Source: an uncultured virus (IMG/VR IMGVR_UViG_3300028883_000045)
Lineage: Duplodnaviria; Heunggongvirae; Uroviricota; Caudoviricetes
IMG/VR virus record: IMGVR_UViG_3300028883_000045
DNA length: 64,000 nucleotides
Reading direction: 5' to 3' (one strand)
Part shown: positions 2,745 through 51,302 of the stretch, one piece after another
How positions within the stretch are numbered: the stretch's first letter is position 1
Layout of the letters: the number at the start of each line of letters is the position of its first letter
Program-made: the position numbers and the translations under genes
Notes under the pieces: generated by a model
Database searches by the model: none
What the model was told of the DNA's origin: nothing
What the model saw: the letters and a program-made list of their open reading frames with translations, nothing else

Positions 2745-4646
2745 ATGCCGAAGACCAAGCACCAGCGGGACAAAGAGCGGTGGCTGCGGGAGTTTCGGGC
2801 CGACGTTCACAAGCGGCTGAAGTTCAAGCCCAACCCCAAAGAGATGAAGCAGGCCTGCGACATCGCCCTCAAGTGGGCGCGCAAGGGCAAGAGTCCGAGC
2901 GAAATGGCCGAGAAGGCCTGCGCGGGGAAGCTCACGAACCCGCCCAAGAAGTGGCACAAGAAGCAGGCCCGCAAGTACAAGAAGCGCCTCGCGGCCGACA
3001 CGCGAGAGGGCCACGACGCGGCGGACTACTGGCAGGGGGCAGCGAGCGCCGAGACTGCGGCGCTGGCGTGGCACCGAAACCCAAAAGTCAAGGGTTACGG
3101 TCAGGTGTCCAAGCGCTGGAAGGCTGGGTACGACGCGGCCCGGAAAGATGCCCGCAGGGGCATTCCTCCTAAGCGGGAAACCAGCTGGGGCGATAAGGGC
3201 TATGCCGGCGGATACACCGTGGGCTATACCGAAGAGCGGCAGCGCCAGTGGGGTAAGGTGATGCGCGGTGCAGGGTATCGCTTCAACCCCTCTCGCGAGT
3301 ACCATCAGCTGGCGCGAGACATCTATAACGACAGAGCCGTCGCTGCCGAACTCCAGGCGCATAGCACGCCCGGCAAGTACGAGCAGTTTCTTCACTGGGA
3401 GGGTGCCGCGACCGCCGAAGAGCGGGCGCTGGGACAAGATCCCCGAGAACACTATGGGGAGCTGTCGGATGGAGAGCGCAGTGTGCTCCGAAAAGCCCGC
3501 ATGCGCCGCAACCCTGATAACCGGCGTCCATGGTACTGGGAATGCGAAGAGTGTGGGTTCATCACCCCGCGCAGCCCCAGAAGCAAAGCGCGCGACCTGG
3601 GGCCCTGCTGCAGGTGTGGTTCGACTGCCTGGAGGAAGGGCACCCGGGCAAAGTCTCCCGGGGGCGGCAGGCCTGAGATGCGCCGCAACCCCCTCATGAT
3701 GATCATGGAGAACCCGGGGGAGTTCTTCCCCGAGGCCCTGCTGAGCGTGGTTGACATGGCTCCAGGGAACACTGATTACGCCAAGTGGCATGGCCTGACG
3801 GAAGACCAGATCGTGAACCTCTACAATCTCGCCATGCAGGATCGGCTCTGGGGGAGCTCCAAGAAGCTTCGGGCCAAGATCAACAGGTATGCTGCGCACC
3901 ATGGCGGCACGGTGAAGCACGCCTGGCACAAGTTCAGCGCTTCGGAGATCGGCGAGATCCTGAACGATGCCCGATACGAAGTGGCTCACTCGATCCGCGT
4001 TCGCAAGAATCCTGGCCGTCGCCGCATGCGCCGCAATTCTGTCGACGTCGAGAGCGAAGACGAACGCAGGTGGGAGGAGTATCAGGACCGCCTAGAAGCT
4101 CAGGCCCGCTCCGAGCTGGCCAACAAGTACGGTAAACACGCAACCATTTTCGTACACGAGGACGGCTCTTTAGAGGTCTACCCCAGCAAGGGTTCCAGGT
4201 CCGCAGTCAACATACCGGGCTACGCCGAGCCCTACGTTCCATACGAAGGCAATCCGAGAAGGAGGGTCGCTGGCAACTCCCGCCGCTCCCGCATGCGCCG
4301 CAATTACCCCGCGCCTCGCATCCTTACGGATGTCACCACCGAGAACTACTTCGACGTGGCCGACGGGCTGTACTGGTTCTGCATGGAGTGGCACTCCGGC
4401 CAGGGCTCGCGGCTCTACGCGGTTGGCAGCAACCTGGGCTTCAGGCCGGCGCCCAGCGCCCGCGGCCCCGAGGGGGAGACAGCCCGCGAGGTCTACGACG
4501 AGCTCAACCAGATGGCAGAGACCAACTACAAGGACGCCGAAGATGAGGCCGAGCGACTCGCCAGAGCCGTGAAGCGTTCCTACGTGATGACCAGCAACCC
4601 GAGAAGGCGCGGCGCTCGCAGGCCCCGTGTGCGCAGGAGACGATAA
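2745..4646 (+). CDS. Basic modular polyprotein with 10 xxNP motifs and a Zn-ribbon module
   Basis: ATG at 2745 just after upstream stop; KPNP, LTNP, HRNP, RFNP, RRNP x2, MENP, RKNP, EGNP, TSNP separate distinct modules; CEECG...CRCG. Confidence 0.7.
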   Translation: MPKTKHQRDKERWLREFRADVHKRLKFKPNPKEMKQACDIALKWARKGKSPSEMAEKACAGKLTNPPKKWHKKQARKYKKRLAADTREGHDAADYWQGAASAETAALAWHRNPKVKGYGQVSKRWKAGYDAARKDARRGIPPKRETSWGDKGYAGGYTVGYTEERQRQWGKVMRGAGYRFNPSREYHQLARDIYNDRAVAAELQAHSTPGKYEQFLHWEGAATAEERALGQDPREHYGELSDGERSVLRKARMRRNPDNRRPWYWECEECGFITPRSPRSKARDLGPCCRCGSTAWRKGTRAKSPGGGRPEMRRNPLMMIMENPGEFFPEALLSVVDMAPGNTDYAKWHGLTEDQIVNLYNLAMQDRLWGSSKKLRAKINRYAAHHGGTVKHAWHKFSASEIGEILNDARYEVAHSIRVRKNPGRRRMRRNSVDVESEDERRWEEYQDRLEAQARSELANKYGKHATIFVHEDGSLEVYPSKGSRSAVNIPGYAEPYVPYEGNPRRRVAGNSRRSRMRRNYPAPRILTDVTTENYFDVADGLYWFCMEWHSGQGSRLYAVGSNLGFRPAPSARGPEGETAREVYDELNQMAETNYKDAEDEAERLARAVKRSYVMTSNPRRRGARRPRVRRRR

Positions 4647-4648
4647 TC

Positions 4649-5428
4649 ATGCCCTGTTCGTTCTGCGGTGGAGATGGCGAGTACATCGGCTCACTGGGGT
4701 CCGTTGACTGGTACCGCTGTCGCAACTGCGGCGCACAATTCATGCACGAGGTTCGCCGCAGGGCGCGTCGCCGGGCGAGAAAAACGCGCATGGAGGAGAA
4801 CCCCCTTCCCGAAAATGCCTTCAAGGGCAGAGCCAAAGATCGCAGGATACTGGCTCACCGCGCAAAAAAGAGCGGGGTTAAATCCATTCCGCCGAGAAAC
4901 TTCAGCAATAGCGGCCTTGTAGCTGCTAACCGGGAAGCCGAGATCAGAGAAGACGAGAACTGGGCGGGCCGGCTCGAGCGGGAATACATTCGCCGAGGCC
5001 TCAAGACAAATCCCCGCCGTCGTGGCCGCGGTCGCCGCAACCCCGGCCCCTCCGACGCCGAGATCCGCGCTGCCGAGAAGATCAAGGGGGTCGAGCCCTG
5101 GATGTTCGACCACGAGGAGTTCTGGACGGCGCTGCGCAAGTACAAGGAGTTCCACGGGAAGTACCCCGACAAGATTCAGGGTAAGCAGGTTCCCGGCGTC
5201 AAAGACGAGAGCTTCCTCGTCGGCATGGGCAAGGCGATGGACGTGACCTACAAGCCCACCGACAAGAAAAGCTCCAAGTACGGGAGTGCGTACATCCACG
5301 AGTTCTGCGACAACCTGAGTCGCAAGCCAAAAGACTCCGAGCTCCCCGATCGCGCCTGCAGCGCGGACGGGAAAACGATCGTTACGTACGGGGGGAAGTT
5401 TGGAGTCCGGGACTGGGTCAGGGGCTAG
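4649..5428 (+). CDS. NP-motif protein: N-terminal Zn ribbon, basic linkers, globular C-terminal domain
   Basis: CSFC...CRNC; EENP, KTNP, RRNP; C-terminal YKEFHG...YIHEF...GGKF domain. Confidence 0.65.
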   Translation: MPCSFCGGDGEYIGSLGSVDWYRCRNCGAQFMHEVRRRARRRARKTRMEENPLPENAFKGRAKDRRILAHRAKKSGVKSIPPRNFSNSGLVAANREAEIREDENWAGRLEREYIRRGLKTNPRRRGRGRRNPGPSDAEIRAAEKIKGVEPWMFDHEEFWTALRKYKEFHGKYPDKIQGKQVPGVKDESFLVGMGKAMDVTYKPTDKKSSKYGSAYIHEFCDNLSRKPKDSELPDRACSADGKTIVTYGGKFGVRDWVRG

Positions 5429-7494: not shown

Positions 7495-8387
7495 TTTTCG
7501 CGCTGAACGGGCGAACGATGGGGGCCTACCTGGGCGACATCAGCCTCTCCAGCCTCAAGAAAGAGCGCAAGAAGCTCAAGAGTCGCTTGAGGGAAGAAGA
7601 GAACCTTTCGTTTGCGGATCCCAAGCGTGCCAAGGCGCTGCGCGCCAGCATCAGGCAGCTGGACGAGCAGATTCGCAACTACGAGCAGTACACCCCCACT
7701 GAGCGGGAGGTCCAGCGCGACAGGCGCCAGGCCAATCAGTCTCGGGCCAGCATCACGCGCACGACTCCGGTCAAGAACGTTCAGAGCATCAAGAGCCAGC
7801 TGCGACGCCACAGGATCGAGTACCAGAAGGCCATCAAGGAAATGCCGGCCGCGGAGAAAGACCAGATCCTGATGCGGGAGAACGAGGCTTATCGCAGCAT
7901 GGCCGGCGACGTGCCCGCTCACATACGTGAGTACATGCTCGAGAACAAGGTCTACTCCGATCAGATTTACCGGGCCATGAACGTTCCCGGCGCGAAGGTG
8001 GACTCTCCGCTCTGGCAGATGTACAAGGACCGGGCCCGCAAGGTTAAAACCCAGCTGCGCCAGGCCGAGCAGTACCTCGAGCGGCAGGCGGTCACACCCT
8101 ACGTACCCCCGTCCCTCATGGACATCTACAGACAGGTAGGGAACCGCGTTGCCGAGAACAACCCCGGTTATGGCGAGCAGGAAGTTCAGCAGTCGGTTGC
8201 CAGGTACGTGGCCGGCAAGGCGGCCGGCGGCGGGGCGCAGTTCGGTCCCCCGTCAGCGCCCGGAGGGCAGGCGGTCGAAAGCAGCTACGCAACGGCCGAG
8301 GCGCCGCAGGAGAAGAAGAGCGACCTGCCGGGCTGGCTGGTGCCCATTGCGGCGGCGGGGCTGATACTCCTGGGAGCGGGCGGATGA
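7491..8387 (+). CDS. Coiled-coil protein with C-terminal TM
   Basis: ATGA overlap; charged helical body; WLVPIAAAGLILLG terminus. Confidence 0.6.
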   Translation: MIFALNGRTMGAYLGDISLSSLKKERKKLKSRLREEENLSFADPKRAKALRASIRQLDEQIRNYEQYTPTEREVQRDRRQANQSRASITRTTPVKNVQSIKSQLRRHRIEYQKAIKEMPAAEKDQILMRENEAYRSMAGDVPAHIREYMLENKVYSDQIYRAMNVPGAKVDSPLWQMYKDRARKVKTQLRQAEQYLERQAVTPYVPPSLMDIYRQVGNRVAENNPGYGEQEVQQSVARYVAGKAAGGGAQFGPPSAPGGQAVESSYATAEAPQEKKSDLPGWLVPIAAAGLILLGAGG

Positions 8388-9490
8388 TTTACGCGGTTTA
8401 TCACGAGGGGCCGGGGGAGTGGCGGTTGTGTGTTCTGGAACCGGGGATAGCGGATGAACAGCTACTGATCAGGAATCTCGGAGATTCCGAACACGAGATT
8501 ATAGATAGCCAAGATCTGATCTCCCTGATGAGCTACGACAGCCAGGGTGCGACCCGGGTTTATCCGTTCGCGGAAGTGACCGCGCTTGATGAAAGCATGG
8601 TCCACCCTCGTTACGCTTATGCGGCCAATGTCAAGCTTCCGCCGCTGGACGTTGAACTTCAGTCCGGATACGACATGGCGCGCCGTCGGCTGGAATACCT
8701 GCGCAACGAACACTTGACCGTCACGACCCTGCGTGGCGCAGCTATCTTTTCCGCCTTGAGCGCCAGGCTGGGCAACGGGCTTTGCGAGCGGTCCTTCTAC
8801 GAGATGTGGCCATATATTCAGAGTGGCGAGATAATCGATATGCCGCACCAGGAGGTTGTCGACCTGATACCTCCGCAGAAACCCGGAAGAGAGAGCTTCG
8901 TAAGGCTCACGATTCCCAGTCTCTGGCGCTGGTGCGAAGAGATCGAGCCGGTAATCAATTCCGGACTGAGAGATCGCCCGCTACGCCGAACCTTGGCACT
9001 GGAAGTCGGAGTGGCGCGTGGACTGGGACTTGCGAAGCTAAGCTTCTTCCTCGAGATATTGGGAAATGACGTGGGCTGCCTGGACTCGCACATGCTTGCG
9101 GTCATGGCTGGTAGCGTGAAAGAGGGGAACCGTGTAGCTAGTAGCTTCACGGGTCGCCGCAAGCCTCGCGGATGGACCAGTGAGTTTCTGCCCATGTCCG
9201 AGGCAGCTCTCAAGCGATACGAGAAATGGGAGCGTAAGCTTTGCGCCGGGAACCCGTACTATGATCCTCGGGATGAGATGAAGATCGCCAGATGCCAGTG
9301 GATGTCGTGGGAGCACATTCGGCGTGAATCTACGGAGCACGATTCCGTCCTGGCGACCCTCGAAGCTCACATGATGGGCGAGGAAGAAGTCCCTGAACTG
9401 GCGGGGAAGCTGGTGGGACTCAAGGCTCATGCAAAGTTCATATGGCGTACGAGGGGTTCTTCCTGGAGAAAGAAGAGTAGCGGAGCCTAA
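8384..9490 (+). CDS. Helix-hairpin-helix DNA glycosylase-like protein
   Basis: GLGLAKLSFFLEILGNDVGCLDSHM resembles the HhH-Lys...Asp signature of OGG/EndoIII-superfamily glycosylases; visibly lower GC than flanks. Confidence 0.5.
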   Translation: MIYAVYHEGPGEWRLCVLEPGIADEQLLIRNLGDSEHEIIDSQDLISLMSYDSQGATRVYPFAEVTALDESMVHPRYAYAANVKLPPLDVELQSGYDMARRRLEYLRNEHLTVTTLRGAAIFSALSARLGNGLCERSFYEMWPYIQSGEIIDMPHQEVVDLIPPQKPGRESFVRLTIPSLWRWCEEIEPVINSGLRDRPLRRTLALEVGVARGLGLAKLSFFLEILGNDVGCLDSHMLAVMAGSVKEGNRVASSFTGRRKPRGWTSEFLPMSEAALKRYEKWERKLCAGNPYYDPRDEMKIARCQWMSWEHIRRESTEHDSVLATLEAHMMGEEEVPELAGKLVGLKAHAKFIWRTRGSSWRKKSSGA

Positions 9491-9661: not shown

Positions 9662-9688
9662 GTCGGTTGCCCAGAAAGGAGGTTGCGG

Positions 9689-10891
9689 GTGGCATTCGTG
9701 TTCAATCCCCCAACCAGGAAGGGTCGCAGAAAGTCCGCGACTCGCAAACGTCGGGCAGCCTCGAAGTCCGCCTCCAATTGGCGTGCCATGGTCAAGAAGT
9801 ACGGTGTCGCTGGCGCCGCGGCAAAGCGCAAGGCAGCCAAGAAGGCCGCTGCCAAGCGCAAGCGCACGCGCAAGACCACCAAGACCAAGAGCGTCAAGAA
9901 GCGGGTGACGAGGTCCAGGAAAAGGGTAAGGAGGAACCCCGTGGCCAGGAAGAAACGTCGCTCCACCCGGCGCAAGCGTAAGAGCTACGCCAAGAACCCG
10001 AGAAAGACCAGGAAGACCAGGAAGACCAGGCGGCGTAGCTATCGCCGCAACGCCTGGAAGGGCCAGCCCCGCAAGCACAGCAAGGCGGCCAAGCTGGGGT
10101 GGAGGCGCCGCAAACGCCGCAAGACCACGACCCGCAAGCGTCGCAAGACCGTCCGCCGGCGCAAGACCTACAGCCACCGCCGGTACGTCCGCCGGCGCGG
10201 GAAGCCCCGGGGCACCGCGAAGCAGGTTCGCGCCCGTCGGCGCAACATCCGCAAGGCACTGAACAAGCGTTACGGGCGGAAGTGGACCAAGCACTCCCGC
10301 GCGAAGTGGAACCCCGGCACCAGCCTGAGCCTGGGCGGGTTCAGCCGCTCGATGAGCCAGGCCTTCAGCCTCAACATGCTGAAGGACGGCCTGTCGGTGG
10401 CTGGTGGTATGGTCGGCGCGCTGGCTCTGCCGGCGGTCGTCCAGCGCATCCTTCCGTCCGCTGTCACCAGCCGCGTCTCGCTGGTCAGCGGGTGGACCGG
10501 GTACATCGCGAACTTCGCTTCGGCGGGGATCGTGGGTTACCTGGCGGGACTGGCCCTCGGTCCGTCTCGCGGTCGCCTGGTCCTCTACGGCGGTCTCGGC
10601 GGTGCCATGGCCAAGCTGCTGCTGGACAAGGTGCCGATGCTCAGCGCCAAGACCGGCGTCACCCTGAGCGGCAACTCCGAGCTGGACCGTCTGGTCGAGC
10701 AGGAGATCGCTGCGCAGCTGGCGACCGGCAGCAACATGGGCGCCTACCTGAACCCCGCGCAGGTCGGCGGGGCCGAGCAGCTGGGTGACTACGTCAGCCC
10801 CGGCCAGGTGGTCCGCTCCGAGCAGCTGGGCGGGATCTACGACTACCCCGAGTTCGGCGCGTACGACTCGGGCGTCGAGTTCCCTGTGTAA
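9689..10891 (+). CDS. Arg/Lys-rich core (DNA-condensing)-like protein with a hydrophobic membrane domain
   Basis: GGAGG RBS then GTG 9689; about 210 aa extremely basic with VFNP, RRNP, AKNP, KWNP; then about 3 hydrophobic helices; lies directly before the capsid genes. Confidence 0.7.
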   Translation: MAFVFNPPTRKGRRKSATRKRRAASKSASNWRAMVKKYGVAGAAAKRKAAKKAAAKRKRTRKTTKTKSVKKRVTRSRKRVRRNPVARKKRRSTRRKRKSYAKNPRKTRKTRKTRRRSYRRNAWKGQPRKHSKAAKLGWRRRKRRKTTTRKRRKTVRRRKTYSHRRYVRRRGKPRGTAKQVRARRRNIRKALNKRYGRKWTKHSRAKWNPGTSLSLGGFSRSMSQAFSLNMLKDGLSVAGGMVGALALPAVVQRILPSAVTSRVSLVSGWTGYIANFASAGIVGYLAGLALGPSRGRLVLYGGLGGAMAKLLLDKVPMLSAKTGVTLSGNSELDRLVEQEIAAQLATGSNMGAYLNPAQVGGAEQLGDYVSPGQVVRSEQLGGIYDYPEFGAYDSGVEFPV

Positions 10892-11007: not shown

Positions 11008-11628
11008 ATGGCAGGTCGCACCCTCGTTGTTTCCAGTCCGCAGCCGCGGGCGACCCTGAGGCCGCTGAAGCAGCCCAGGTACGACACGGAGAACATCCCG
11101 TCGGCCGGTACGGCCAACACCCTGAACTTCTTCCAGCGTCCGATCGGCCAGGCGTTCGCGAACGCCCCGGTCGGTACCGGGAAGACCCTGGCCGACACCA
11201 ACATGCAGCAGGCCGGCCAGCTGGGCACCCCGACCGAATTCGACGTCTGGGGGTTCAACGTCCGGACGAACGTGACCATCACCCAGGCCGATCACCAGAT
11301 CGCGATGGACCAGGGCGTCTTCACGTTCAACTTCGGTCAGGGCAGGCCCTGGCTGCAGACCCAGCTGCGCGACATCCCCGCCGGCGTCGACAGCCACGGG
11401 TCGATGGCCGTGGACGGTGCCGGGGCTCTGGACGTGCGCCAGATCATCACCAACGGCATGCCGTCGATCAAGGAGCTCTACAGCTTCGCGGTCGGCCGCA
11501 AGCCCGTCCGGATCCGCTCGAACGAGACGTTCGGCGTAACCCTGAACTGGCCGAACGCCGCACCGAACCCCACGGTGTTCGTGCGCCTGACGGTCCTGAT
11601 CCGCGGCATCGAGTACTCGGCGCTCTAA
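11008..11628 (+). CDS. Putative single jelly-roll major capsid protein
   Basis: Strong RBS (AAGGAGA), highly biased codons, beta-strand-rich 206 aa, QPRYDT...TNM...GQL...F motifs, flanked by hairpins; fold inferred. Confidence 0.6.
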   Translation: MAGRTLVVSSPQPRATLRPLKQPRYDTENIPSAGTANTLNFFQRPIGQAFANAPVGTGKTLADTNMQQAGQLGTPTEFDVWGFNVRTNVTITQADHQIAMDQGVFTFNFGQGRPWLQTQLRDIPAGVDSHGSMAVDGAGALDVRQIITNGMPSIKELYSFAVGRKPVRIRSNETFGVTLNWPNAAPNPTVFVRLTVLIRGIEYSAL

Positions 11629-13143: not shown

Positions 13144-14385
13144 GTGGTCCAGGTCTCGATGTACGAACCCCTGTTCGAGGCCCGCGCGGGCGGCGGGGTG
13201 CCCGTCATCGGTGGGTTTGGCGGTGGGGGTTTCCCCGGGGGAGCCCCCGTCACGGGCGGTCCGGGCCCGGGCGTGCCTGGCCCCGGGATCCCGCCCGTAC
13301 CGCTCTACACGATCTTCACTATGGGGGTTGGGGACTCCGGGGGCGCGCCCGTCGGCCGTCGGATCGCCGGGTGGAACACCATCTCCTCGCAGTTCGACGT
13401 GCTGCCGGCGGGCGGCGGAGTTGCGTGCGCATGGGAAGCGGATTCGGTGGCAGCGAGCAATCTGGCATGCTTCTATTCGAGCGCGGGGGGGTTCGACTAC
13501 ATCGAAGCAACTGCTTACCCCACACCCATCGCGTTCGGAGGCGGGTTTCTCGCGTTCTCGCAGAAGGGCGCCGGCATCTACTCGCGGATCCTCACCCACG
13601 ACTCAGCCCAGTTCTACTTCATGGAGCAATCCCCCTTACCCCCCTTCTCACTGACGCTGGCCGTGGCCGCCGATCCGCGGGCGGGGTGGTTTATGCCCGG
13701 CGTTCCGGGTCCATACATCGGCATTGGGCTGACCTGCTACGCGTTTCAGGGCGGCGCGGTGTTCATGGTCTCGGACGGATTCCTGGGCGGCGGCGGGGTT
13801 GCTCGCACGATCAACCAGGGCCTCGCCTGGACCCAGCCGCTACCAGCGTTGCTCAACATCACCGGCGCGGGGATGACCGAGGAACCCGCAGGAACTCGTG
13901 GGTTCCTGTCCACGACCGACAACGTCTCTGGCGGGTGGCAGTTCCGCAACACGAACGACCAGGGTGCAACATGGAACCTGATATACGACTGGTCCGCTGC
14001 CGGCCCCCCGTTTGGCACTTGGCTGGGCCCCGCATTTGTGCACCGCTGCGTGGCGCTGAGTCCTACGGTGCTGGTACACAGCTACTTCGATTCCGTCAGC
14101 GTCACGGTGGGCATTATGCGCTCAACCGACGGGGGAGCCACCTGGGCAAGCGTCTACACAGATCCTACGCGTTTCGTCCTGTATGACATGTGGCAGGAAA
14201 CCACCACTGGAGACCTGTACGCCTTGCTGGATACTTGGGGGGCCGACGGGCGCATCATCCGCAGCCAGGATGCGGGTGCGTCGTGGGCGGTCTGGTACGA
14301 TCAGCCCCTGAACATCCTCGGGCCCGGCGGTACCGCGCCGAACACATCTGTAGAGGGGCTGCTTATCGCGGGGGGCCACCGATGA
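13144..14385 (+). CDS. Asp-box/BNR-repeat beta-propeller (sialidase-like fold), putative spike
   Basis: RTINQGLAW, NTNDQGATW, RSTDGGATW, RSQDAGASW repeats; Gly/Pro-rich N-terminal linker. Confidence 0.65.
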   Translation: MVQVSMYEPLFEARAGGGVPVIGGFGGGGFPGGAPVTGGPGPGVPGPGIPPVPLYTIFTMGVGDSGGAPVGRRIAGWNTISSQFDVLPAGGGVACAWEADSVAASNLACFYSSAGGFDYIEATAYPTPIAFGGGFLAFSQKGAGIYSRILTHDSAQFYFMEQSPLPPFSLTLAVAADPRAGWFMPGVPGPYIGIGLTCYAFQGGAVFMVSDGFLGGGGVARTINQGLAWTQPLPALLNITGAGMTEEPAGTRGFLSTTDNVSGGWQFRNTNDQGATWNLIYDWSAAGPPFGTWLGPAFVHRCVALSPTVLVHSYFDSVSVTVGIMRSTDGGATWASVYTDPTRFVLYDMWQETTTGDLYALLDTWGADGRIIRSQDAGASWAVWYDQPLNILGPGGTAPNTSVEGLLIAGGHR

Positions 14386-17760: not shown

Positions 17761-19461
17761 ATGCCGAACCTGGCCATAGGGATCCTGGGTGTTAGCCCCC
17801 CTCCGGGGGGTGGGGGTTTTGACCCTGATAACACCGTGATCGTCGCCAAGGGCGGCACGGGCGGGGTGGACTCCAACACGATCCAGGGCGCCATAGACAG
17901 CATCACGGACGCCAGTGCCGCCAAGCCCTACACGGTCCTGGTCTTTCCGGGGACTTACATTGAGGACCTGATGCTACAGCCGTTCGTGAGTCTTTACGGG
18001 CTGGGCGATACCCTGTACCCCGTGCAGGTCGTCGCCGCGGCGGGAGCCGCGATCACCCTGCCGAACGTGGCCGCCGTGGCGGACGCGGGACTTACGATCA
18101 AGGGCATCACGTTCATCAGCGCGCAGGACGCGCCGATGGTCAACCTGCCGGCGGGAATGGGAAGCTTCTTCTTCCGGAACTGCATGTTCCTGCACTCGGT
18201 GGATAATCTCGCCCAGAACCTGGTTGAGCAGGCCGCCGGAGAGCTCTTCTTCGACGGCTGCGAACTGCTCTACAACATGGACGGTAACACCGGGGGCGCC
18301 AGCGAGCACAACGTCTTCTCCGTTACCGCCGAAGCGGACCTGTCGGTCAAGAACTGCCGCCTGAGCGCCAACATCGAGGACCCCACTGGGACCGTAAATA
18401 TCATCCACGCCGCTAACGCAGCGATCAGCATAAGCTTCGATAACAACATCTGCCGCAGCTACACCTCCGGTGCGAGGACGTGTCTTTTCGTGTTCACCGA
18501 GAGCACGCTCTCCGGCGACGAGCAGAAGTTCACCGGCAATTATGTAGAACTTTCCGCTCCCGGGTTCGCAGGCCAAGCGACCACCTACCTCATCGACAGC
18601 GGCGGCAACAACTCGGAGGTCCGCTCTGTCCACAACGTGTATGAGTACGGCACCGTGGCGGGCACCGAAAACCTGGTGATCGTGGCCAACGGCGACGCGC
18701 TCTACAGCAGGCTGGACTACTGGGGCACCAACGCGGACCCGATCGGGCTCGGGACCTTCGAGAATACCTCCATGTGGGATCCCGACAACATGGAGCTCGC
18801 GGGCCGCCAGAACTGGACGGGGGTCCTCACCCCCGCGCAGATCACCGCCAACCAGAACAACTACAACCCCACAGGGCTGGACAACGCGGCGATCATGCAC
18901 CTGGACTCCAACGGGAGCTACAACATAACCGGGATCACGGCCCCTCCGCAGCACGCCGAGGGGCGCATACTGGTCATCTATAACACGAACCAGGACAAGC
19001 GCATCACGCTCATGGACCAGGACGGAGCCAGCCTGGCAGCAAATCGTTTTGCCTTGGGCGGCAAGGACTTCGTGATCGAAGCCGGGCAGTGCGTCATACT
19101 GCAGTACGATGACGTGAATAACAACTGGCGGATCATCGGATCCAGCCACACCGGTGGCGGCGAAAGCATCATCAAGGGCTGGATCCAGTTCAGCGGCCAG
19201 GGCATCGTCGCCATTCAAGACAGCTACAACGTCAGCAGCATTGCGGATAACGGTGCGGGCAACTACACGGTCTTCTGGGACACGGACTTCGCGAACAACG
19301 ATTACGCTTGCGTCACCACCTATCACGACAATTCCATTCTTGATGTCTGGACACCGACTTCGTTACTCGCTGCTGCATCGGCTCAGGTGTTTTGCTGGAG
19401 GTCTACGCTGGTAGGTTACGATCCAGATTTTTACAGCGTCATGGCCATAGGAGACCAGTGA
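17761..19461 (+). CDS. Tailspike-like protein: pectin-lyase-type beta-helix plus C-terminal fibre-tip domain
   Basis: TIQGAIDSI...YTVLVFPGTYIE helix-cap motif; C-terminal KGWIQFSG...SYNVSSIADNGAGNYTVFW. Confidence 0.65.
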   Translation: MPNLAIGILGVSPPPGGGGFDPDNTVIVAKGGTGGVDSNTIQGAIDSITDASAAKPYTVLVFPGTYIEDLMLQPFVSLYGLGDTLYPVQVVAAAGAAITLPNVAAVADAGLTIKGITFISAQDAPMVNLPAGMGSFFFRNCMFLHSVDNLAQNLVEQAAGELFFDGCELLYNMDGNTGGASEHNVFSVTAEADLSVKNCRLSANIEDPTGTVNIIHAANAAISISFDNNICRSYTSGARTCLFVFTESTLSGDEQKFTGNYVELSAPGFAGQATTYLIDSGGNNSEVRSVHNVYEYGTVAGTENLVIVANGDALYSRLDYWGTNADPIGLGTFENTSMWDPDNMELAGRQNWTGVLTPAQITANQNNYNPTGLDNAAIMHLDSNGSYNITGITAPPQHAEGRILVIYNTNQDKRITLMDQDGASLAANRFALGGKDFVIEAGQCVILQYDDVNNNWRIIGSSHTGGGESIIKGWIQFSGQGIVAIQDSYNVSSIADNGAGNYTVFWDTDFANNDYACVTTYHDNSILDVWTPTSLLAAASAQVFCWRSTLVGYDPDFYSVMAIGDQ

Positions 19462-19850
19462 TGAAGTGCCGCGTAGTCTACAAACCTGACGGGACCGTGG
19501 CGGTGATTCATTACGCTCCGAAGTCGCGCCTGAGTTACGAAGACGCAATGGCGCGGGCCATGAAGCAGTTTCCCGGCTGCGACTTCGATGACATAGATAC
19601 CAGCGAACTGCCGCAGACGCGGGCTGACAGGAATGCGTGGCGGGGTGAAAAGGGGGTTGGGGTTCGGGTTGACGCGGGGGCGAAGGCGGCCCAGGATGCA
19701 GAAAAACGGGTTGCGCAGAAGCTCGAGGCCTACAAGCTCCGGGCCGCGCGCACAGAAGTCGAGGCGAGTGCGGATCCCGACAGGCAAACTATTTTGGACA
19801 AAATCGACGCGCAGCTCGCGGAGCTGCCACAAGTTGACCGAGTGAGGTGA
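19461..19850 (+). CDS. Fibre assembly chaperone-like protein
   Basis: DTSELPQTRADRNAWR motif; directly follows the fibre gene. Confidence 0.45.
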   Translation: MKCRVVYKPDGTVAVIHYAPKSRLSYEDAMARAMKQFPGCDFDDIDTSELPQTRADRNAWRGEKGVGVRVDAGAKAAQDAEKRVAQKLEAYKLRAARTEVEASADPDRQTILDKIDAQLAELPQVDRVR

Positions 19851-24603: not shown

Positions 24604-25497
24604 ATGCGCCGCAACCCCCTGACCACCCGCAAGGTGCAGGTGCTCGACGCGCCTGATGATGCCAACGACATCATCGAGTGGCTGATGGGTGCCATGTACC
24701 TGTCTGAAGGGTACCACTACGAGCAGTCCCTATCCCGGCTGATGGCGATCAACGGGTGGCCCGAGGAGATGATCGGTCGGGGTTCGTTCGCGATTGTGCT
24801 TCGCGGCCGGCAGGCCTCGGGTACCGTGGTAAAGTTCACCAGCGACAAGCTCGACGGCCAGACCTGCGCGTACCTGTCCGAGCTGCAGCTCCGGGTCGGC
24901 AGCTTGCCGGGAGTGCCGAAAATCTACAGGGTCTCACGGGACGGTGAGCTTTACGCGATCCTGATGGAGCGGCTGGTGCCGCTGACCAGCCTCTACTCGC
25001 ACGTGTCCGACTTCGTAATTGCCCGCTTCCCCGATCTGGATCGCCGGGATCGCATGCAATTCGCGGCCATTTACGAATATGCAGTGCGCGAAACCCGCGC
25101 GGCCATCTCTCACGCCTTCGAAGTGAGCCTGGAAGACGCGCGCAATGATGCCGTGAACGAGGCTCGCCGAGAGGGCAAGCTGGGCCCCGGCACGAAAGAA
25201 GCCATTCTCGGGCAGATGGAAGTCTTTGCTGACGACCTGCGCGAAAACATGCCCATGGCCCCCACTGACCCGGCCGACGTGGCGCACACGGAAATGCTGG
25301 AGAACGCGGCCCAGGCGATCGAGAGCCTGATCGGTCTCGGGGTTGCGTGCCCGGACCTGCACGAGGGTAACTGGGGTGCTCGGCTTCACGCCGACCGGTC
25401 CACGCAACAGATCTTCATTGAATTCCTGGTCCTGGACTTCGGGATAAGCTCGTTTCCCGAGGGAGAAGAACTGAACATGGAGGTGCTGGAGCCATGA
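24604..25497 (+). CDS. Protein kinase-like (PKL fold) protein with N-terminal MRRNP
   Basis: IGRGSFAIV, VVKFT, ILMERL, DLHEGN and LDFG motifs in canonical order. Confidence 0.75.
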   Translation: MRRNPLTTRKVQVLDAPDDANDIIEWLMGAMYLSEGYHYEQSLSRLMAINGWPEEMIGRGSFAIVLRGRQASGTVVKFTSDKLDGQTCAYLSELQLRVGSLPGVPKIYRVSRDGELYAILMERLVPLTSLYSHVSDFVIARFPDLDRRDRMQFAAIYEYAVRETRAAISHAFEVSLEDARNDAVNEARREGKLGPGTKEAILGQMEVFADDLRENMPMAPTDPADVAHTEMLENAAQAIESLIGLGVACPDLHEGNWGARLHADRSTQQIFIEFLVLDFGISSFPEGEELNMEVLEP

Positions 25498-26453
25498 TGC
25501 GCGTACATCCCATGGACCCCGACGGCTACTGGGTGCTGCCCAGCGGCGAGCTCGTACCCCTGTACGAACATACTCACGTCGAGTACATCGAAGAATTCCC
25601 GGAGCAGTTCAGAATTGACGAGTTGCCCGACGACACGCTGAAGCTGTTCCCCATGGCGATCCGCAACGGCGCGATACGCCTGACGCTGGACTACGACACT
25701 GGTTCGGGCTACGCGGAGCGGCTGGCCGCGGAGATGGACACCACCCGCCCCATGAACCTGATCCGCCTCGCGGACGCGCTGCAGGAGATCGGATTCACAG
25801 AAGGCGAACTCTGGATCGAGGACCCGTTCCGGCCGAGGCGCCGCGGGGAAGCTGCGGCGCCGTGCGATGTCATCGTGCGTGCCGAGGACTTCATCGCACG
25901 GCCCAAGATCGACTGGACGCGGGCCCTGGTGCCCAACCCCTACCCCGAACTCGAAGAATCGCTCGTCTGGAGTGGCAACCCTGTAGTCCCCAAGGTCAGC
26001 AAGTACGAAGGCATGACCGTCCAGTACACCAACACCCGCAAGAAGCTCCGTCAGTGGGGCCAGATAACCAGCGGGGCGCGAATGCTGGACTTCGCGGTGG
26101 AAATGGACATGATGGACGAAGTCCGCGAGCGACTCTACGCGGTCTACACCAACATCAAGTACCGGCCGCTGGGCTACAGGTTGATCGGCGCCGGATCCCG
26201 GAGCGGAGCCCTGGTAGATCCCACTGTCGTCTTCGGGCCGGCCGTGGCGCTGCAGGCCTCGTGCCTGTTTATGGTCCACAATCATCCCTCAGGGGGGCGG
26301 GAGTTCAGCAGCGACGACAGGGCGATGACCTACAACCTGAAAAAAGGCGCGGAGATCCTGGGGATCAAGCTGGTCGACCACGTGCTGGTAACCTGGAGCG
26401 CCCAGACCGGGGCGCCGGTCCACCTGTCGATGGTAGAGGAAGGGCTGATTTGA
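25494..26453 (+). CDS. Two-domain protein: GYW..P.G domain, NP linkers, JAB/RadC domain
   Basis: HNHPSG...SSDD...GIKLVDHVLV JAB motif; LVPNP and WSGNP linkers. Confidence 0.75.
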   Translation: MMRVHPMDPDGYWVLPSGELVPLYEHTHVEYIEEFPEQFRIDELPDDTLKLFPMAIRNGAIRLTLDYDTGSGYAERLAAEMDTTRPMNLIRLADALQEIGFTEGELWIEDPFRPRRRGEAAAPCDVIVRAEDFIARPKIDWTRALVPNPYPELEESLVWSGNPVVPKVSKYEGMTVQYTNTRKKLRQWGQITSGARMLDFAVEMDMMDEVRERLYAVYTNIKYRPLGYRLIGAGSRSGALVDPTVVFGPAVALQASCLFMVHNHPSGGREFSSDDRAMTYNLKKGAEILGIKLVDHVLVTWSAQTGAPVHLSMVEEGLI

Positions 26454-27331: not shown

Positions 27332-28420
27332 TTGGACCCAGCAGCTGCTACCCACGCCAACCAGTCTCGGATTATCGACGCTCAGCCCTGCCCGGGCGAG
27401 GCTTACCCCGAGAACTTCACTTTCACGGCCCGCGAGCTGGTCGGCCGGAGGTTCCTGCGCAAGGGACAGGAGATCCTCTGCGCCTACGTGGAGCACACTC
27501 CGGATCAGGGCCCCAAGGCCGAATTCATCCTGGACTTCACCAAGGAGTACCCCACCACGCTGGCCCTCGAGGCCGGCGAAGAGTGGGGCCCGGGAACCAT
27601 CCAGTGGGACCACAGCGTCAAGAACCTGGACATCATGGGCCGCTCCCTGAATCGCCTCCCGCACAAGGAGACCGTCTACTGCGTGGGAAGCGGCCCCTGC
27701 CTCATGAAGAATTGGGAGGAGCTTACCCGGGTAGACAAGTCCCGCGCCGCGATCGTGGGCTGCAACGAGCTCCTGCAGTACCTCCCGGCCGGCCTGCTCG
27801 ACTACTACATGGCGCTCGACCCCCGATGCCCGCCCAAGTGGTGGGCCGAGTACGACCTCTCGCGCACCACGGCGGTCCTGGGCCCCTGCGTGCCGCCGGA
27901 GATGGCGCGCGCTCCGTGGCGGGATGTGCTCTGGTACCGGCTCGGGTACCGTAACAAGCTCTCGAAGATGCTCGCCAACAAGCGCCCCTCTCTTCAGATC
28001 ATCAACCCCCGCTTCGGGATCGGCCCGGGCGAGCTGGAGCTGGCCTGGAAGTTCAAGCCCCGCAACGTGGTCCTGGTGGGCCACAGCTACGCCTACGATC
28101 GCGTTGACGGGGTGATCCACGAGCACATGAACGAACCTCTCACGCGCGACCGGTGGGAGACCTCCCTGCGGGCGGTGAACCCCTACTGCTGCGCAGACAT
28201 CAACGGCAAGAACGTGGTCACCGACTACCACATCCTGATCATCGGCATGATGACCCTCGCCTGCTGCCAGCTGCTGGCCGACGCGGGGGTCCGGGTCATC
28301 AACGCCTCGGAGGGCGGGATCCTCAAGAGCGCCTCGGACATTCCAGCCTACCGGGACCGGCCGATTTTCCCGGAGCGCGCCAGGCTGAAAGACGTGGTAG
28401 AGGAGCTGAATGCGACGTAA
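27332..28420 (+). CDS. Maf/DUF115 (MptE-like) putative nonulosonic acid transferase
   Basis: VGSGPCL, IVGCN, ALDP, VVLVG.SYAY, VINASEGG motifs. Confidence 0.7.
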   Translation: MDPAAATHANQSRIIDAQPCPGEAYPENFTFTARELVGRRFLRKGQEILCAYVEHTPDQGPKAEFILDFTKEYPTTLALEAGEEWGPGTIQWDHSVKNLDIMGRSLNRLPHKETVYCVGSGPCLMKNWEELTRVDKSRAAIVGCNELLQYLPAGLLDYYMALDPRCPPKWWAEYDLSRTTAVLGPCVPPEMARAPWRDVLWYRLGYRNKLSKMLANKRPSLQIINPRFGIGPGELELAWKFKPRNVVLVGHSYAYDRVDGVIHEHMNEPLTRDRWETSLRAVNPYCCADINGKNVVTDYHILIIGMMTLACCQLLADAGVRVINASEGGILKSASDIPAYRDRPIFPERARLKDVVEELNAT

Positions 28421-28760
28421 CCCGATCATTTGGCCCTGTTCTAGGAGAGCGAACATGAGCAAGCAGACATACCTCCTGGTCAAAGCCAGGAACACAGCTG
28501 AGCACACCCCCTTAGCAGAACTCGATTCTGTCCCCATCGGGTACCACGAAGACAGATGGATACTGCAGGACGCTCCGTATTCGCTCGTCGATTACGTGGA
28601 GCAGAACTTCCCGGACCTTGCCGACGAGGGCCCGGACGCATGCTCTATTGTAGCGCACTTGATCGTCGAAGCGCTCCTGGGTACCGTCGTTAGCGGGGGA
28701 CACATTGCCAGTACGCTGCTAGGGAAGTGCCAGTTTTACGGATCGCTCGTATACGAATGA
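28410..28760 (+). CDS. Hypothetical protein (ORF begins MRRNP; alternative start near 28454)
   Basis: ORF between the two Maf-like genes; AGGAG precedes the second ATG. Confidence 0.45.
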   Translation: MRRNPIIWPCSRRANMSKQTYLLVKARNTAEHTPLAELDSVPIGYHEDRWILQDAPYSLVDYVEQNFPDLADEGPDACSIVAHLIVEALLGTVVSGGHIASTLLGKCQFYGSLVYE

Positions 28761-31260: not shown

Positions 31261-31291
31261 GTCTGCGGGCTCAGCGCTTCTTGCTTTTCTT
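31249..31291. terminator. Bidirectional terminator at the convergence of the two arms
   Basis: AAGAAGCGCTGAG/CTCAGCGCTTCTT stem followed by a T-rich tract. Confidence 0.7.
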
Positions 31292-31956
31292 CAAACCCCT
31301 TTGTGGTCCCTGAAGTCCACAAAGAAAATACCGTTCATGTAGATACGCATCCCGATCCACTTGGGCCCTCCCGAACGCAGGCTCAAGGATCCTGTCTCGA
31401 TCTCAACCGAAAACCTTTCTTTGGGCCTCACGCAGATCGGTCTTTGCTCAGTGGTCATGTCGTATATTCTGCGCTCCTGATAATGCTTGGGGAGGCTTTC
31501 GTAGTCTTTGGTTTTGAAGTCGACCACCTCCAGCGATTCCCACAACTGGTCTTCCGGATTGAGGGTCACGCTGGAATACCGCTTCAGGGCGCCCTCCTCC
31601 GGCGCTACGGTGTTGACCGGGATGGCCGACAGGGGAACCCTCACCCACGGCATGTGATCGAAATAGAACACGAATGACGATCTGTAGTAAACCTCCAGCC
31701 ACGCCTCATCCAGTCGCCCATCGGCCGGCTCGACGCTGAAACCCCACAGGTAAAACTGTGTTCTCTCTGGCAGCGATCCCGAAATTGGCATGTTGGTGTC
31801 TACGAAGGTCTTGACCTCCCCCGCATAGTCGCAATCCCCAAAGGGAACTTCAAACCCGCGGGAGAAGCAATCCCCTGATGCCCGGATGAGCACTGTGTCG
31901 TACAGGGGCTGCTTGAGCTGACGGTATAAAGGGGGAAGGTTCTTGGTCTCAGACAT
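31291..31956 (-). CDS. Divergent paralog of putative capsid protein 11008-11628
   Basis: LKQPLYDT vs LKQPRYDT; KTFVDTNM vs KTLADTNM; FYLWGFSV vs FDVWGFNV; MNGIFF vs IRGIEY. Confidence 0.75.
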   Translation of the reverse strand: MSETKNLPPLYRQLKQPLYDTVLIRASGDCFSRGFEVPFGDCDYAGEVKTFVDTNMPISGSLPERTQFYLWGFSVEPADGRLDEAWLEVYYRSSFVFYFDHMPWVRVPLSAIPVNTVAPEEGALKRYSSVTLNPEDQLWESLEVVDFKTKDYESLPKHYQERRIYDMTTEQRPICVRPKERFSVEIETGSLSLRSGGPKWIGMRIYMNGIFFVDFRDHKGV

Positions 31957-51273: not shown

Positions 51274-51302
51274 TCCTCTGGATACGAATTGGGAGGGGGC
51301 GG

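What the first reader, a model, noticed from the sequence alone, without database searches (positions are those of the whole stretch)
2745..5428. Polyproteins segmented by a recurring (R/K)xNP motif: candidate proteolytic maturation system
Seen: the 633-aa ORF has 10 xxNP sites plus RRNS/RRNY variants, and these fall between unrelated small modules (a duplicated H...W.GAA.AE..AL unit, a Zn ribbon, an FDV...W...HSGQ.S.LY unit). The next ORF has 3 NP sites and the basic half of the core protein (9689) has 4. Inference: NP is a protease site or packaging tag that releases many small effectors from a virion-packaged polyprotein, analogous to adenoviral core-protein or T4 internal-protein processing. 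No classic maturation protease is recognisable here; weak candidates are the C-terminal domain of 4649-5428 and the HExxH protein at 33492.
Basis: partly seen in the sequence, partly recalled or inferred. Interest (0 to 1): 0.85.

Follow-up and report, generated by a model that had tools for sequence, protein, structure and literature searches.

The report
Asn-Pro seams in viral cargo polyprotein
Two neighbouring genes of an uncultured membrane-containing bacterial virus encode chains of small swappable protein modules joined by a conserved basic-Asn-Pro seam that looks like a cut-here mark, although no cutting has been shown.

Summary
ORF A (2745-4646, 633 aa) has 10 Asn-Pro against 1.5 expected (0 of 20,000 shuffles reach 10). 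ORF B has 3 and the basic half of the core protein has 4.

The seams are not chance. In 43 unselected relatives of 180 aa or more, NP is 5.0x enriched while SP, TP and DP are at 1.1-1.5x. Homology blocks end at NP. A virus that is 98-100% identical in its flanking genes carries a reshuffled ORF A, and its DNA breakpoints lie within 10 nt of N|P junctions.

Eight viral contigs share the gene order transglutaminase-like protein, NP polyprotein, NP-segmented basic core protein, two capsid-like genes. The first of these matches Salisaeta phage SSIP-1 virion protein gp34.

Cleavage at the seams is my preferred reading (about 0.5) but is inferred only. A better candidate, a Cys-His-Asp transglutaminase-fold protein, lies just upstream of the window.

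I found no paper describing such seams. Earlier AI notes of this scan report the same seams on other viral DNA, also without evidence of cutting.

The parts
2745..4646 (+). ORF A: 633-aa polyprotein of about 8 modules joined by basic-Asn-Pro seams. The Asn codons of the 10 NP start at nt 2832, 2937, 3078, 3285, 3510, 3687, 3711, 4008, 4251 and 4596.
2745..2939 (+). Module 1 (aa 1-65): three-helix unit. It contains NP30 at a helix start inside the module.
   Evidence: AF2 pLDDT 85-91 over most of it. Shared with P0002, P0011, P0104 and P0135. NP30 is also present in P0135 but absent in P0011 and P0104.
2940..3080 (+). Module 2 (aa 66-112): W-H...Y...GH..A.YWQGA.SAE helical hairpin, copy 1. This is the commonest module among relatives.
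3081..3287 (+). Module 3 (aa 113-181): the KVKGYG...YRFN unit. In L001 it sits after the zinc ribbon instead of before it.
   Evidence: block W 327-545 = L001 648-866, 96% nt identity
3288..3512 (+). Module 4 (aa 182-256): hairpin copy 2 plus a further helix. It ends in MRRN|P.
3513..3689 (+). Module 5 (aa 257-315): Cys4 zinc ribbon bounded by MRRN|P on both sides.
   Evidence: AF2 strands with pLDDT 80-87. Shared with P0008 and P0011. Moved as a block in L001.
3690..3713 (+). Hydrophobic mini-spacer PLMMIMEN between two NP. It recurs in relatives as PLMMIMEN, PLMMLVEN, PLLMVVPN and PLLMSVMAN.
3714..4010 (+). Module 6 (aa 324-422): helical unit shared with P0003, P0007, P0016 and P0017.
4011..4304 (+). 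Basic spacer PGRRRMRRN(S), module 7 (aa 432-503, helix plus small sheet) and basic spacer PRRRVAGNSRRSRMRRN(Y).
4305..4643 (+). Module 8 (aa 521-618): the YWFC..WHSGQ.S.LY unit, which is widespread as a stand-alone protein of about 80-110 aa. It is followed by SN|P and an Arg-rich tail (619-633).
   Evidence: More than 100 stand-alone relatives. One hit in Pseudanabaena phage PA-SR01. AF2 pLDDT 97.
4649..5428 (+). ORF B: 259 aa with its own Shine-Dalgarno sequence. It has a Lar-like zinc ribbon (aa 1-34), a helical part, the seam NPRRRGRGRRNP (aa 121-132) and a conserved C-terminal domain (aa 132-259, nt 5042-5425). That domain ends many polyproteins in relatives.
9683..10891 (+). Core-like protein. 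An 8-residue hydrophobic leader ends in N|P. Three Lys/Arg-rich segments are bounded by NP. An N|P falls exactly at the junction with the hydrophobic C-terminal half (Asn codons at nt 9704, 9935, 9995, 10310 and 10751).
24604..24617 (+). MRRNP at the N-terminus of a kinase-like protein, encoded by the same 14-mer ATGCGCCGCAACCC as two internal seams of ORF A.
28410..28423 (+). MRRNP at the N-terminus of a 116-aa protein.

Best explanation
ORF A and ORF B together form one cassette polyprotein in the morphogenetic gene block of an uncultured, probably membrane-containing, jelly-roll-capsid bacterial virus. It is a string of small autonomous modules of about 35-110 aa. Every module, including the first, is preceded by a short and mostly basic stretch ending in Asn-Pro. 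I propose that these seams are processing sites. After translation as one chain, the protein is cut at or next to N|P, and the neighbouring basic core protein is cut in the same way. This would release the modules, short Arg-rich peptides and a leaderless core protein. The cut could be made by a virus-encoded protease; the best candidate is the conserved transglutaminase-fold Cys-His-Asp protein encoded a few genes upstream. Alternatively it could occur by Asn-driven self-cleavage. The conserved C-terminal domain of ORF B would then be the handle that brings the chain into the particle. Separately, the seam-coding microhomology (CGC CGC AAC CC) serves as the place where cassettes are exchanged between related genomes. 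Shown here: the seams, their Asn specificity, their position at module borders, their conservation across a virus lineage, and cassette exchange at them. Inferred: cleavage, the protease, virion packaging and any effector role.
For: (1) Enrichment: 10 NP against 1.5 expected in ORF A. Polyprotein and core genes of all 8 related contigs are enriched (polyprotein p from 6e-8 to 6e-4, core p from 6.5e-6 to 1.3e-2), while the remaining genes stand at 0.64-1.84x.
(2) Asn specificity: in 43 unselected HMMER hits of 180 aa or more, NP is 149 against 29.7 expected (5.0x). SP is 1.1x, TP 1.3x and DP 1.46x.
(3) A site-like context: Arg or Lys at P3 in 52% and at P2 in 49% of 166 unique sites, and Gly at P2' in 24%.
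(4) Module borders: 54-58% of 302 BLAST HSP ends lie within 5 aa of an NP, against 18% for random positions. Seven of the 10 NP in ORF A fall in AF2 segments with pLDDT below 50. The NPRRRGRGRRNP seam of ORF B overlaps the disordered stretch 117-128, which lies between confident domains.
(5) Leaders: polyproteins of relatives start with a short leader and then NP, for example MRRRKNP, MFKGRRNP, MAKRKAKKNP and MSNPG. Two further window proteins start with MRRNP. Six of 7 distinct core proteins start with a 7-9-residue hydrophobic leader ending in N|P and have N|P at the border between the basic and hydrophobic halves.
(6) One chain: the internal MRRN ATG codons lack the GGAG that precedes true starts.
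(7) A Transglut_core protein (PF01841, E 3.8e-8 and 3.6e-11) with invariant Cys, His and Asp lies upstream of the polyprotein in L001, L003, L009, L011, L012 and L013. Its only relative among phage records is the virion structural protein gp34 of SSIP-1.
(8) Precedent: cleavage exactly between Asn and Pro is established for EscU/FlhB (PMC3189125, passages read) and for aquareovirus VP5 at Asn42-Pro43 (PMC9148132, abstract and passages read). Five of the ten asparagine peptide lyase families are viral coat proteins (PMC3207474, passages read).
Against: No result here shows a cut. Natural C-termini of relatives do not end in Asn more often than chance (6 of 161). NP30 lies inside a confidently modelled three-helix module. 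In about half of the ORF A seams a helix starts within 0-3 residues after NP, so a helix-capping role is possible. The low pLDDT partly reflects a shallow alignment and not only disorder. SSIP-1 has the transglutaminase-like virion protein but no NP excess in any of the 30 proteins tested, so that enzyme is not tied to NP seams. From recall, enzymes of this fold in archaeal prophages cut cell-wall cross-links. The C-terminal domain and all modules lack any family or fold match apart from zinc ribbons. Virion location rests on gene order alone.
Confidence: 0.5

Rival explanations
1. The seams are never cut. Basic-Asn-Pro is a structural punctuation mark: an N-cap Asn plus Pro that stops one helix and starts the next, set in a flexible basic linker. 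The protein then works as an intact beads-on-a-string polyvalent protein.
For: Helices begin 0-3 residues after NP at residues 31, 68, 183, 316 and 619 of the ORF A model. NP30 sits inside a folded module. There is no excess of C-terminal Asn among natural termini (6 of 161). No protease has been shown.
Against: SP, TP and DP are, from textbook knowledge, equally good cap-plus-Pro pairs, yet they are not enriched (1.1-1.46x against 5.0x for NP). Seams also precede beta-rich and zinc-ribbon modules. NP stands before the first module after a leader of only 2-22 residues, where nothing needs to be linked. Double seams enclose peptides of 6-12 residues such as PVVVAN and PRRSRSRRARRN, which are too short to fold.
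Confidence: 0.28
2. The seam is mainly a DNA-level device. It is a conserved microhomology that lets cassettes recombine, and the NP dipeptide is only its translation.
For: The 14-mer ATGCGNCGNAAYCC occurs 4 times against 0.04 expected. MRRN-coding repeats of 14-24 nt occur 4-5 times in ORFs A and B. Of the 8 internal ends of the five 96-99% identical blocks shared with L001, 7 lie within 10 nt of an N|P junction and the eighth lies at the MRRNY variant. P0152 differs from ORF B by one module inserted between two NPRRRxRGRRNP repeats.
Against: Most seams share no nucleotide similarity beyond AAY CCN; KPNP, TNPP, HRNP, RFNP, ENP, GNP and SNP all have different flanks. NP is kept across clades whose capsid-like proteins are only about 30-37% identical and whose seam contexts differ (V/A at P4, S/A at P2). 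It is also kept in the non-shuffled core protein at fixed positions. Selection therefore acts on the peptide.
Confidence: 0.1
3. Basic-Asn-Pro turns are DNA-binding or docking motifs, in the manner of SPKK or AT-hook turns. They would tether the chain to the packaged genome or to a capsid or membrane partner, without cleavage.
For: The seams are embedded in Arg/Lys-rich stretches. They occur in the polycationic half of the core protein, where the Arg+Lys fraction is 0.44-0.64. ORF A ends in RRRGARRPRVRRRR.
Against: Many seams are not basic (ENP, GNP, SNP, TNP, FNP and the hydrophobic PLMMIMEN|P and PVVVAN|P). The invariant part is N-P and not the charge. The N-terminal hydrophobic leader plus NP of the core protein does not fit a DNA-binding turn.
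Confidence: 0.1

Closest known systems
Polyvalent proteins of phages and conjugative elements (Iyer et al. 2017, PMC5512222; abstract and searched passages read)
   Same: Many unrelated domains sit in one polypeptide of a mobile element. Domain content is mosaic and turns over fast. Processing by an associated peptidase and delivery with the DNA are proposed.
   Different: None of the domain families catalogued there was detected by Pfam, PHROGs or NCBIfam. The modules here are much smaller (median 58 aa). That paper does not use the word 'linker' at all, and its three uses of 'asparagine' were not all read. The paper proposes zincin-like peptidases, which are absent here.
Adenovirus core proteins (pVII, pX/mu) cut by the adenoviral protease, and ASFV polyproteins pp220/pp62 cut by pS273R
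   Same: A jelly-roll-capsid DNA virus makes basic DNA-condensing precursors and structural polyproteins that are cut at a short repeated motif during maturation, giving small basic peptides.
   Different: Those sites are (M/I/L)xGx-G or GG-X, cut by a clan CE cysteine protease. Here the motif is basic-Asn-Pro, no adenain-like protein was detected, the host is prokaryotic, and cutting is not shown.
Asparagine peptide lyases: reovirus mu1 and aquareovirus VP5 (Asn42-Pro43), EscU/FlhB N|PTH, and noda-, tetra- and picornavirus coat proteins (PMC3207474, PMC9148132, PMC3189125)
   Same: The scissile bond follows Asn, and in two families it is exactly Asn-Pro. Many members are virion proteins cut inside the particle without a separate protease.
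   Different: Those are single cuts inside a folded catalytic environment. Here 10-16 sites per chain lie in apparently floppy linkers. No sequence similarity to those families was found. None of the 13 NP of ORFs A and B is followed by Thr-His.
T4 internal proteins and other head cargo with a capsid-targeting sequence removed by the prohead protease gp21 (recalled)
   Same: Cargo proteins carry a short N-terminal leader that is removed at a short motif; compare MRRN|P, MSN|P and the MIGALVFAN|P-type leaders here.
   Different: The T4 motif is (L/I)xE, the virus is tailed and has no polyprotein chain. No prohead-protease family was detected in the window.
[quoted passage not shown]
   Same: Its virion protein gp34 is the only phage-record relative of the transglutaminase-like protein encoded upstream of the polyprotein (33% identity, E 3e-19). 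Both have two adjacent small capsid-like genes and many small membrane-protein genes.
   Different: No other protein is detectably similar. SSIP-1 has no NP-enriched protein among the 30 tested. The genome here is larger, with a contig of 76 kb.

Membership tests
Polyvalent proteins (Iyer et al. 2017) | Two to fifteen distinct domains in one polypeptide of a phage or conjugative element | tested here: met
   About 8 modules in ORF A and 3 in ORF B, separately found in other proteins. The viral context is shown.
Polyvalent proteins (Iyer et al. 2017) | Contains domain families catalogued for polyvalent proteins (zincin-like MPTase, ArdC-N, LPD domains and others) | tested here: not met
   Pfam, PHROGs and NCBIfam give 0 families for ORF A. 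For ORF B they give only a sub-threshold Lar-like zinc ribbon (23.4 bits against a cut-off of 28.6). That these libraries hold the catalogued families is recalled, not checked.
Polyvalent proteins (Iyer et al. 2017) | Packaged and delivered with the DNA | not testable with these tools
   Only the gene position in the morphogenetic block speaks to this.
Asparagine peptide lyases (MEROPS N families) | Conserved Asn at the scissile position | tested here: met
   Asn is the fixed residue of all 166 aligned sites by construction. Independently, NP is 5.0x enriched while other X-Pro pairs are not.
Asparagine peptide lyases (MEROPS N families) | Self-cleavage through Asn cyclisation | not testable with these tools
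   Needs a purified protein or mass spectrometry.
Asparagine peptide lyases (MEROPS N families) | Homology or fold shared with a described N family | tested here: inconclusive
   No Pfam match. Fold searches listed only zinc ribbons and generic helices, and single modules were not folded alone.
FlhB/YscU/EscU autocleaving switch proteins | N-P-T-H motif in a four-strand sheet domain | tested here: not met
   None of the 13 NP of ORFs A and B is followed by TH, and there is no family match.
2A-type ribosome-skipping peptides | D(V/I)ExNPG|P consensus | tested here: not met
   NPGP occurs once (ORF B residues 131-134) and lacks the upstream D(V/I)Ex. Gly at P2' is found in only 24% of 166 sites. 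That 2A works only on eukaryotic ribosomes is recalled.
Transglutaminase-like cysteine peptidase fold (PF01841), for the upstream candidate protease | Pfam match above the cut-off and a conserved Cys-His-Asp triad | tested here: met
   L001 4293-4913 scores 34 bits and L003 4521-5078 scores 43.7 bits, against a cut-off of 23. GDC(D), H and D are invariant in 6 of 6 aligned proteins. The gene lies outside the window, inferred from the near-identical L001.
Transglutaminase-like cysteine peptidase fold (PF01841), for the upstream candidate protease | Acts on the NP seams | not testable with these tools
SSIP-1-like membrane-containing phages | Shared virion proteins | tested here: inconclusive
   Only gp34 matches. 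The capsid-like proteins have no match in phage records. The Atlas places the 294-aa protein in viral clusters, with only a weak lead (0.77) to the PM2 coat protein.

The most novel reading that the evidence does not exclude
The basic-Asn-Pro seams are enzyme-free, self-cleaving linkers. Asn followed by Pro cannot deamidate through the next backbone nitrogen and can only attack its own carbonyl. A chain of NP seams would therefore break into its modules and into protamine-like peptides by asparagine-lyase chemistry once confined in the particle. A whole lineage of prokaryotic jelly-roll viruses would then use one dipeptide both as a protease-independent maturation code and as the recombination joint for exchanging cargo cassettes.
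Probability: 0.15. Interest if true: 0.9.

Novelty: new variant of a known kind. Interest (0 to 1): 0.72.

Why it matters
Polyprotein maturation at a repeated short motif is a hallmark of eukaryotic viruses and is hardly known in viruses of bacteria. If the seams are cut, this lineage would show a bacterial-virus counterpart of adenovirus and ASFV core processing, with a different site (Asn-Pro) and possibly a different or no protease. It would also define a simple rule for predicting the mature products of hundreds of unannotated metagenomic viral proteins.

Even if the seams are not cut, they mark the exact units that these viruses exchange. Two genomes that are 98-100% identical elsewhere differ by whole cassettes at this locus. 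That is the signature expected of host-interaction or counter-defence cargo, and it gives a ready list of small domains to test.

The seam is also a candidate tool for protein engineering, as a short sequence that delimits autonomous modules.

Tried and rejected
- **Family searches.** Pfam, PHROGs and NCBIfam on ORF A, ORF B, ten seam-bounded pieces and the neighbours gave nothing except a sub-threshold Lar-like zinc ribbon.
- **Fold searches.** Both AF2 models were searched (Foldseek pdb and BFVD, VIA wide). Only zinc ribbons (Z 4.4) and generic helical bundles (Z up to 6.1) appeared. The C-terminal domain and the single modules were not folded alone, so no statement can be made on fold novelty.
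- **ESM Atlas.** The C-terminal domain looked like Topoisom_I_N at 0.91, but recognition was far below the bar, so I disregarded it.
- **HExxH protease at 33492.** It is absent.
- **Internal translation starts at the MRRN ATG codons.** There is no Shine-Dalgarno sequence, unlike at true starts.
- **2A-like skipping and the NPTH switch.** The motifs are not met.
- **Excess of C-terminal Asn at natural protein ends, as a footprint of cleavage.** It was 6 of 161, which is background.
- **NP excess in stand-alone small relatives.** It was 21 against 15.5 expected, so no excess.
- **NP excess in SSIP-1.** None in the 30 proteins tested.
- **Searches for relatives that found none.** ORF A in viral contigs; the C-terminal domain in genome contigs and viral contigs; P0007 in viral contigs; the capsid-like proteins in phage records.
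- **Tools or data not available.** No whole genome is held for the window. Complex prediction, intended for the transglutaminase-like protein with the core leader, was not available. The SSIP-1 primary paper (Aalto et al. 2012) is not held, so its virion N-terminal data, which could bear on processing, were not seen.
- **Module alignment.** A segment-wise alignment meant to deepen the ORF A fold could not be made. The fold therefore used an alignment that is deep only for module 8.
- **Literature.** Searches for 'Asn-Pro'+'autocleavage'+'phage', 'polyprotein'+'bacteriophage'+'Asn-Pro' and 'Asn-Pro'+'succinimide'+'peptide bond cleavage' returned no paper on such seams.
Full report
**What is at the coordinates.** The window is 62% G+C and reads as a virus-like element. 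Its plus-strand block from 1 to about 31 kb encodes proteins with almost no family matches. Its minus-strand block carries an integrase, HU, an SNF2 helicase, methyltransferases and sugar-nucleotide genes.

ORF A (2745-4646, 633 aa) starts at an ATG preceded by GGAGA. ORF B (4649-5428, 259 aa) follows three bases later with its own AGGAGA. No whole genome is held for the window.

**Checking the observation.**
- ORF A has 10 Asn-Pro against 1.48 expected from its own composition. None of 20,000 shuffles reached 10; the largest value was 7.
- The contexts are MRRNP (twice), VRKNPGRRR, GNPRRR, SNPRRR, HRNP, RFNP, KPNP, TNPP and ENPG. MRRNS and MRRNY are variants.
- ORF B has 3 NP against 0.54 expected. 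The ORF at 9683 has 5 against 0.49, four of them in its basic half.
- The other 96 called proteins of the window have 65 NP against 37.4 expected, a ratio of 1.74.
- The duplicated hairpin, the zinc ribbon and the YWFC..WHSGQ unit are all present.

The 'HExxH protein at 33492' does not: none of the frames translated there contains the motif.

**The seams are a property of a protein family.**
- An exhaustive HMMER search gave 233 hits at E of 0.001 or better, of which the best 150 were listed.
- Most listed hits are stand-alone proteins of 80-110 aa matching only module 8 (residues about 528-616). The longer hits are multi-module chains.
- Taking all 43 listed hits of 180 aa or more without selection, NP is 149 against 29.7 expected (5.0x). 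The 106 short hits have 21 against 15.5.
- In the same 43 proteins SP, TP and DP stand at 1.1x, 1.3x and 1.46x. The signal is therefore specific to Asn and is not a generic cap-residue-plus-Pro signal.
- Cutting the chains at N|P gives internal pieces with a median of 58 aa. It also gives two kinds of mini-spacer, one basic (PRRRGRGRRN) and one hydrophobic (PLMMIMEN, PLLMVVPN).
- Over 166 unique sites, P3 is Arg or Lys in 52%, P2 in 49%, and P2' is Gly in 24%. That site set came from chains chosen for having at least 4 NP, so its size is biased, although its context is informative.

**The seams are module borders.**
- Among 23 polyproteins, 54% of HSP starts and 58% of HSP ends (302 HSPs) lie within 5 residues of an NP or a terminus. 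For random positions the figure is 18%. However, 174 of the 302 HSPs also span a seam, so neighbouring modules often travel together.
- P0003 (1091 aa) carries modules of both ORF A and ORF B in one chain and ends in the ORF B C-terminal domain.
- P0152 equals ORF B plus one module inserted exactly between two NPRRRxRGRRNP repeats.
- The AF2 model of ORF B (mean pLDDT 75) has a confident zinc ribbon (1-34), helices, a disordered stretch at 117-128 that overlaps the seam NPRRRGRGRRNP (121-132), and a confident C-terminal domain (131-254).
- The ORF A model (mean pLDDT 64.7) places 7 of the 10 seam Asn in the listed segments with pLDDT below 50, which cover about 32% of the chain. By my own binomial estimate that is p of about 0.02. 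NP30 lies inside a confident three-helix module, NP323 follows the mini-helix PLMMIME, and NP618 ends module 8.
- This structural test is weak, because the alignment was deep only for module 8.

**Cassette exchange at the seams on a short time scale.**
- Locus L001 comes from a virus whose flanking proteins are 98-100% identical to the window's. Its ORF A (P0002) has a different module set and order.
- At the DNA level the two ORF A/B regions share five blocks of 96-99% identity. Of the 8 internal block ends, 7 lie within 10 nt of an N|P junction. The starts lie 9-10 nt upstream, inside the RRN-coding bases, and the ends lie 2 nt downstream. The eighth end lies at the MRRNY variant.
- The 14-mer ATGCGNCGNAAYCC occurs 4 times against 0.04 expected: twice inside ORF A, and at the starts of the genes at 24604 and 28410.
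- Most seams share no nucleotides beyond AAY CCN. The microhomology therefore explains how cassettes move but not why Asn-Pro is kept.

**The viral context.** Eight contigs share the following gene order: a transglutaminase-like protein (not detected in L010), small membrane proteins, one or two NP polyprotein genes ending in the conserved C-terminal domain, a basic core-like protein, a capsid-like protein of about 205 aa, and a capsid-like protein of about 295-320 aa. The contigs are the window, L001, L003, L009 and L010-L013.
- In L010-L013 the capsid-like proteins are only about 26-35% identical to those of the window or L009. Their polyproteins are 1259, 1213, 766 and 950 aa, with 15, 16, 13 and 11 NP against 2.0-3.2 expected.
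- Every polyprotein and every core protein in the eight contigs is NP-enriched, while the remaining genes stand at 0.64-1.84x.
- The core proteins are the clearest case. In 6 of 7 distinct sequences a 7-9-residue hydrophobic leader ends in N|P (RVAFVFN|P, SAFIFN|P, MIGALVFAN|P). Arg/Lys-rich pieces follow, each bounded by N|P. The border to the hydrophobic half is an N|P. L009 departs from this pattern.
- The 294-aa protein falls in viral clusters of the ESM Atlas, with jelly-roll-like structural neighbours and only a weak lead to the PM2 coat protein.
- The transglutaminase-like protein has a Pfam match (PF01841, E 3.8e-8 and 3.6e-11) and invariant Cys, His and Asp in 6 of 6 sequences. In L011-L013 it is fused to a long tail that ends in a hydrophobic stretch and an Arg run, which I read by eye as a possible membrane anchor. 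Its only match among 50,697 phage records is gp34 of Salisaeta icosahedral phage 1, annotated there as a structural protein.
- SSIP-1 is described as a membrane-containing phage with two capsid protein types (PMC6356626, passages read). It has no NP-enriched protein among the 30 tested.
- The transglutaminase-like gene lies just upstream of the window start. In L001 it sits immediately before the homologue of window ORF 1-819.

**How it most likely works.** The invariant Asn-Pro, the basic P2 and P3, the position in linkers, the short leader plus NP before even the first module, the 6-12-residue peptides enclosed by double seams and the leader of the core protein together look like a processing code.

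Cleavage exactly between Asn and Pro has precedents in EscU/FlhB (PMC3189125) and aquareovirus VP5 (PMC9148132). Asn-driven self-cleavage is common in virion proteins (PMC3207474). Asn-Pro is also listed among hydrolysis-prone peptide bonds (PMC10056213, Table 3).

I therefore prefer cleavage at or next to N|P, with confidence about 0.5. The agent would be the transglutaminase-fold enzyme or self-cleavage. The ORF B C-terminal domain would act as a packaging handle. All of this is inference.

The main rival is an uncut structural or docking seam. It is favoured by helix starts right after several seams, by NP30 lying inside a module, and by the lack of excess C-terminal Asn among natural termini (6 of 161).

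**Comparison with what is known, and novelty.**
- The architecture resembles polyvalent proteins (PMC5512222). It shares none of their catalogued domains in the libraries searched, and that paper does not use the word 'linker'.
- Functionally it resembles adenovirus and ASFV core maturation and the capsid-targeting leaders of T4. Those comparisons are recalled, and the motifs and enzymes differ.
- Three literature searches returned no description of Asn-Pro seams in phage proteins.
- Earlier AI notes of this scan describe the same kind of seams in other uncultured viruses, and an NP-seamed polycationic core protein. None shows cutting. They are not independent evidence, but they suggest the format is widespread.
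- I rate this a new variant of a known kind.

Noticed in passing
window 8384-9490 (+): This 368-aa gene has a lower third-position G+C (0.66) than its neighbours. It is absent from the otherwise 98-100% identical L001 and present in L003 (50% identity, 509 aa). It is a second variable spot next to the polyprotein.
   Followed up: partly
window 31291-31956 (-) and 11008-11628 (+): The 206-aa capsid-like protein has a distant paralogue (26% identity over 182 aa) on the opposite strand, 20 kb away.
   Followed up: no
window 13144-14385 (+): This 413-aa protein with a BNR/Asp-box repeat is only 83% identical to its L001 counterpart, while its neighbours are 98-100% identical. It may be a receptor-binding protein under diversifying pressure.
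   Followed up: no
window 28779-30050, 31972-32964, 35182-35880, 49253-49966, 49948-51645: A scattered set of sugar-nucleotide-type genes: MptE-like, Polysacc_synt_2 dehydratase, SurE, a cytidylyltransferase and a B12-binding radical SAM enzyme, together with several methyltransferases. They suggest a virus-encoded sugar or glycan modification pathway.
   Followed up: no
window 24604-25497 and 25494-26453 (+): A T7 gp0.7-like kinase (PHROG E 1.2e-9) that starts with MRRNP is followed by a RadC-like JAB-domain protein (Pfam E 7.6e-23). Both are protein types discussed as injected or early-acting.
   Followed up: partly
L011 6130-7671, L012 6690-8330, L013 6521-8146: In the more distant clade the transglutaminase-like domain is the N-terminal part of a 513-546-aa protein. 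Its C-terminus is a hydrophobic stretch followed by an Arg run, which suggests an enzyme anchored in a membrane.
   Followed up: partly
L001 1312-3546 and L003 1499-3628: Large proteins (744 and 709 aa) upstream of the window's left end start with a basic leader and several NP within the first 40 residues (6 and 4 NP in all). They were not analysed further.
   Followed up: no
window 19431-19832 (-): An ORF with NPNPNP scored among the NP-rich ORFs. It lies on the strand opposite to its neighbours, overlaps the end of the 17761-19461 gene by about 30 nt and has weak codon bias, so it is probably not a gene.
   Followed up: no
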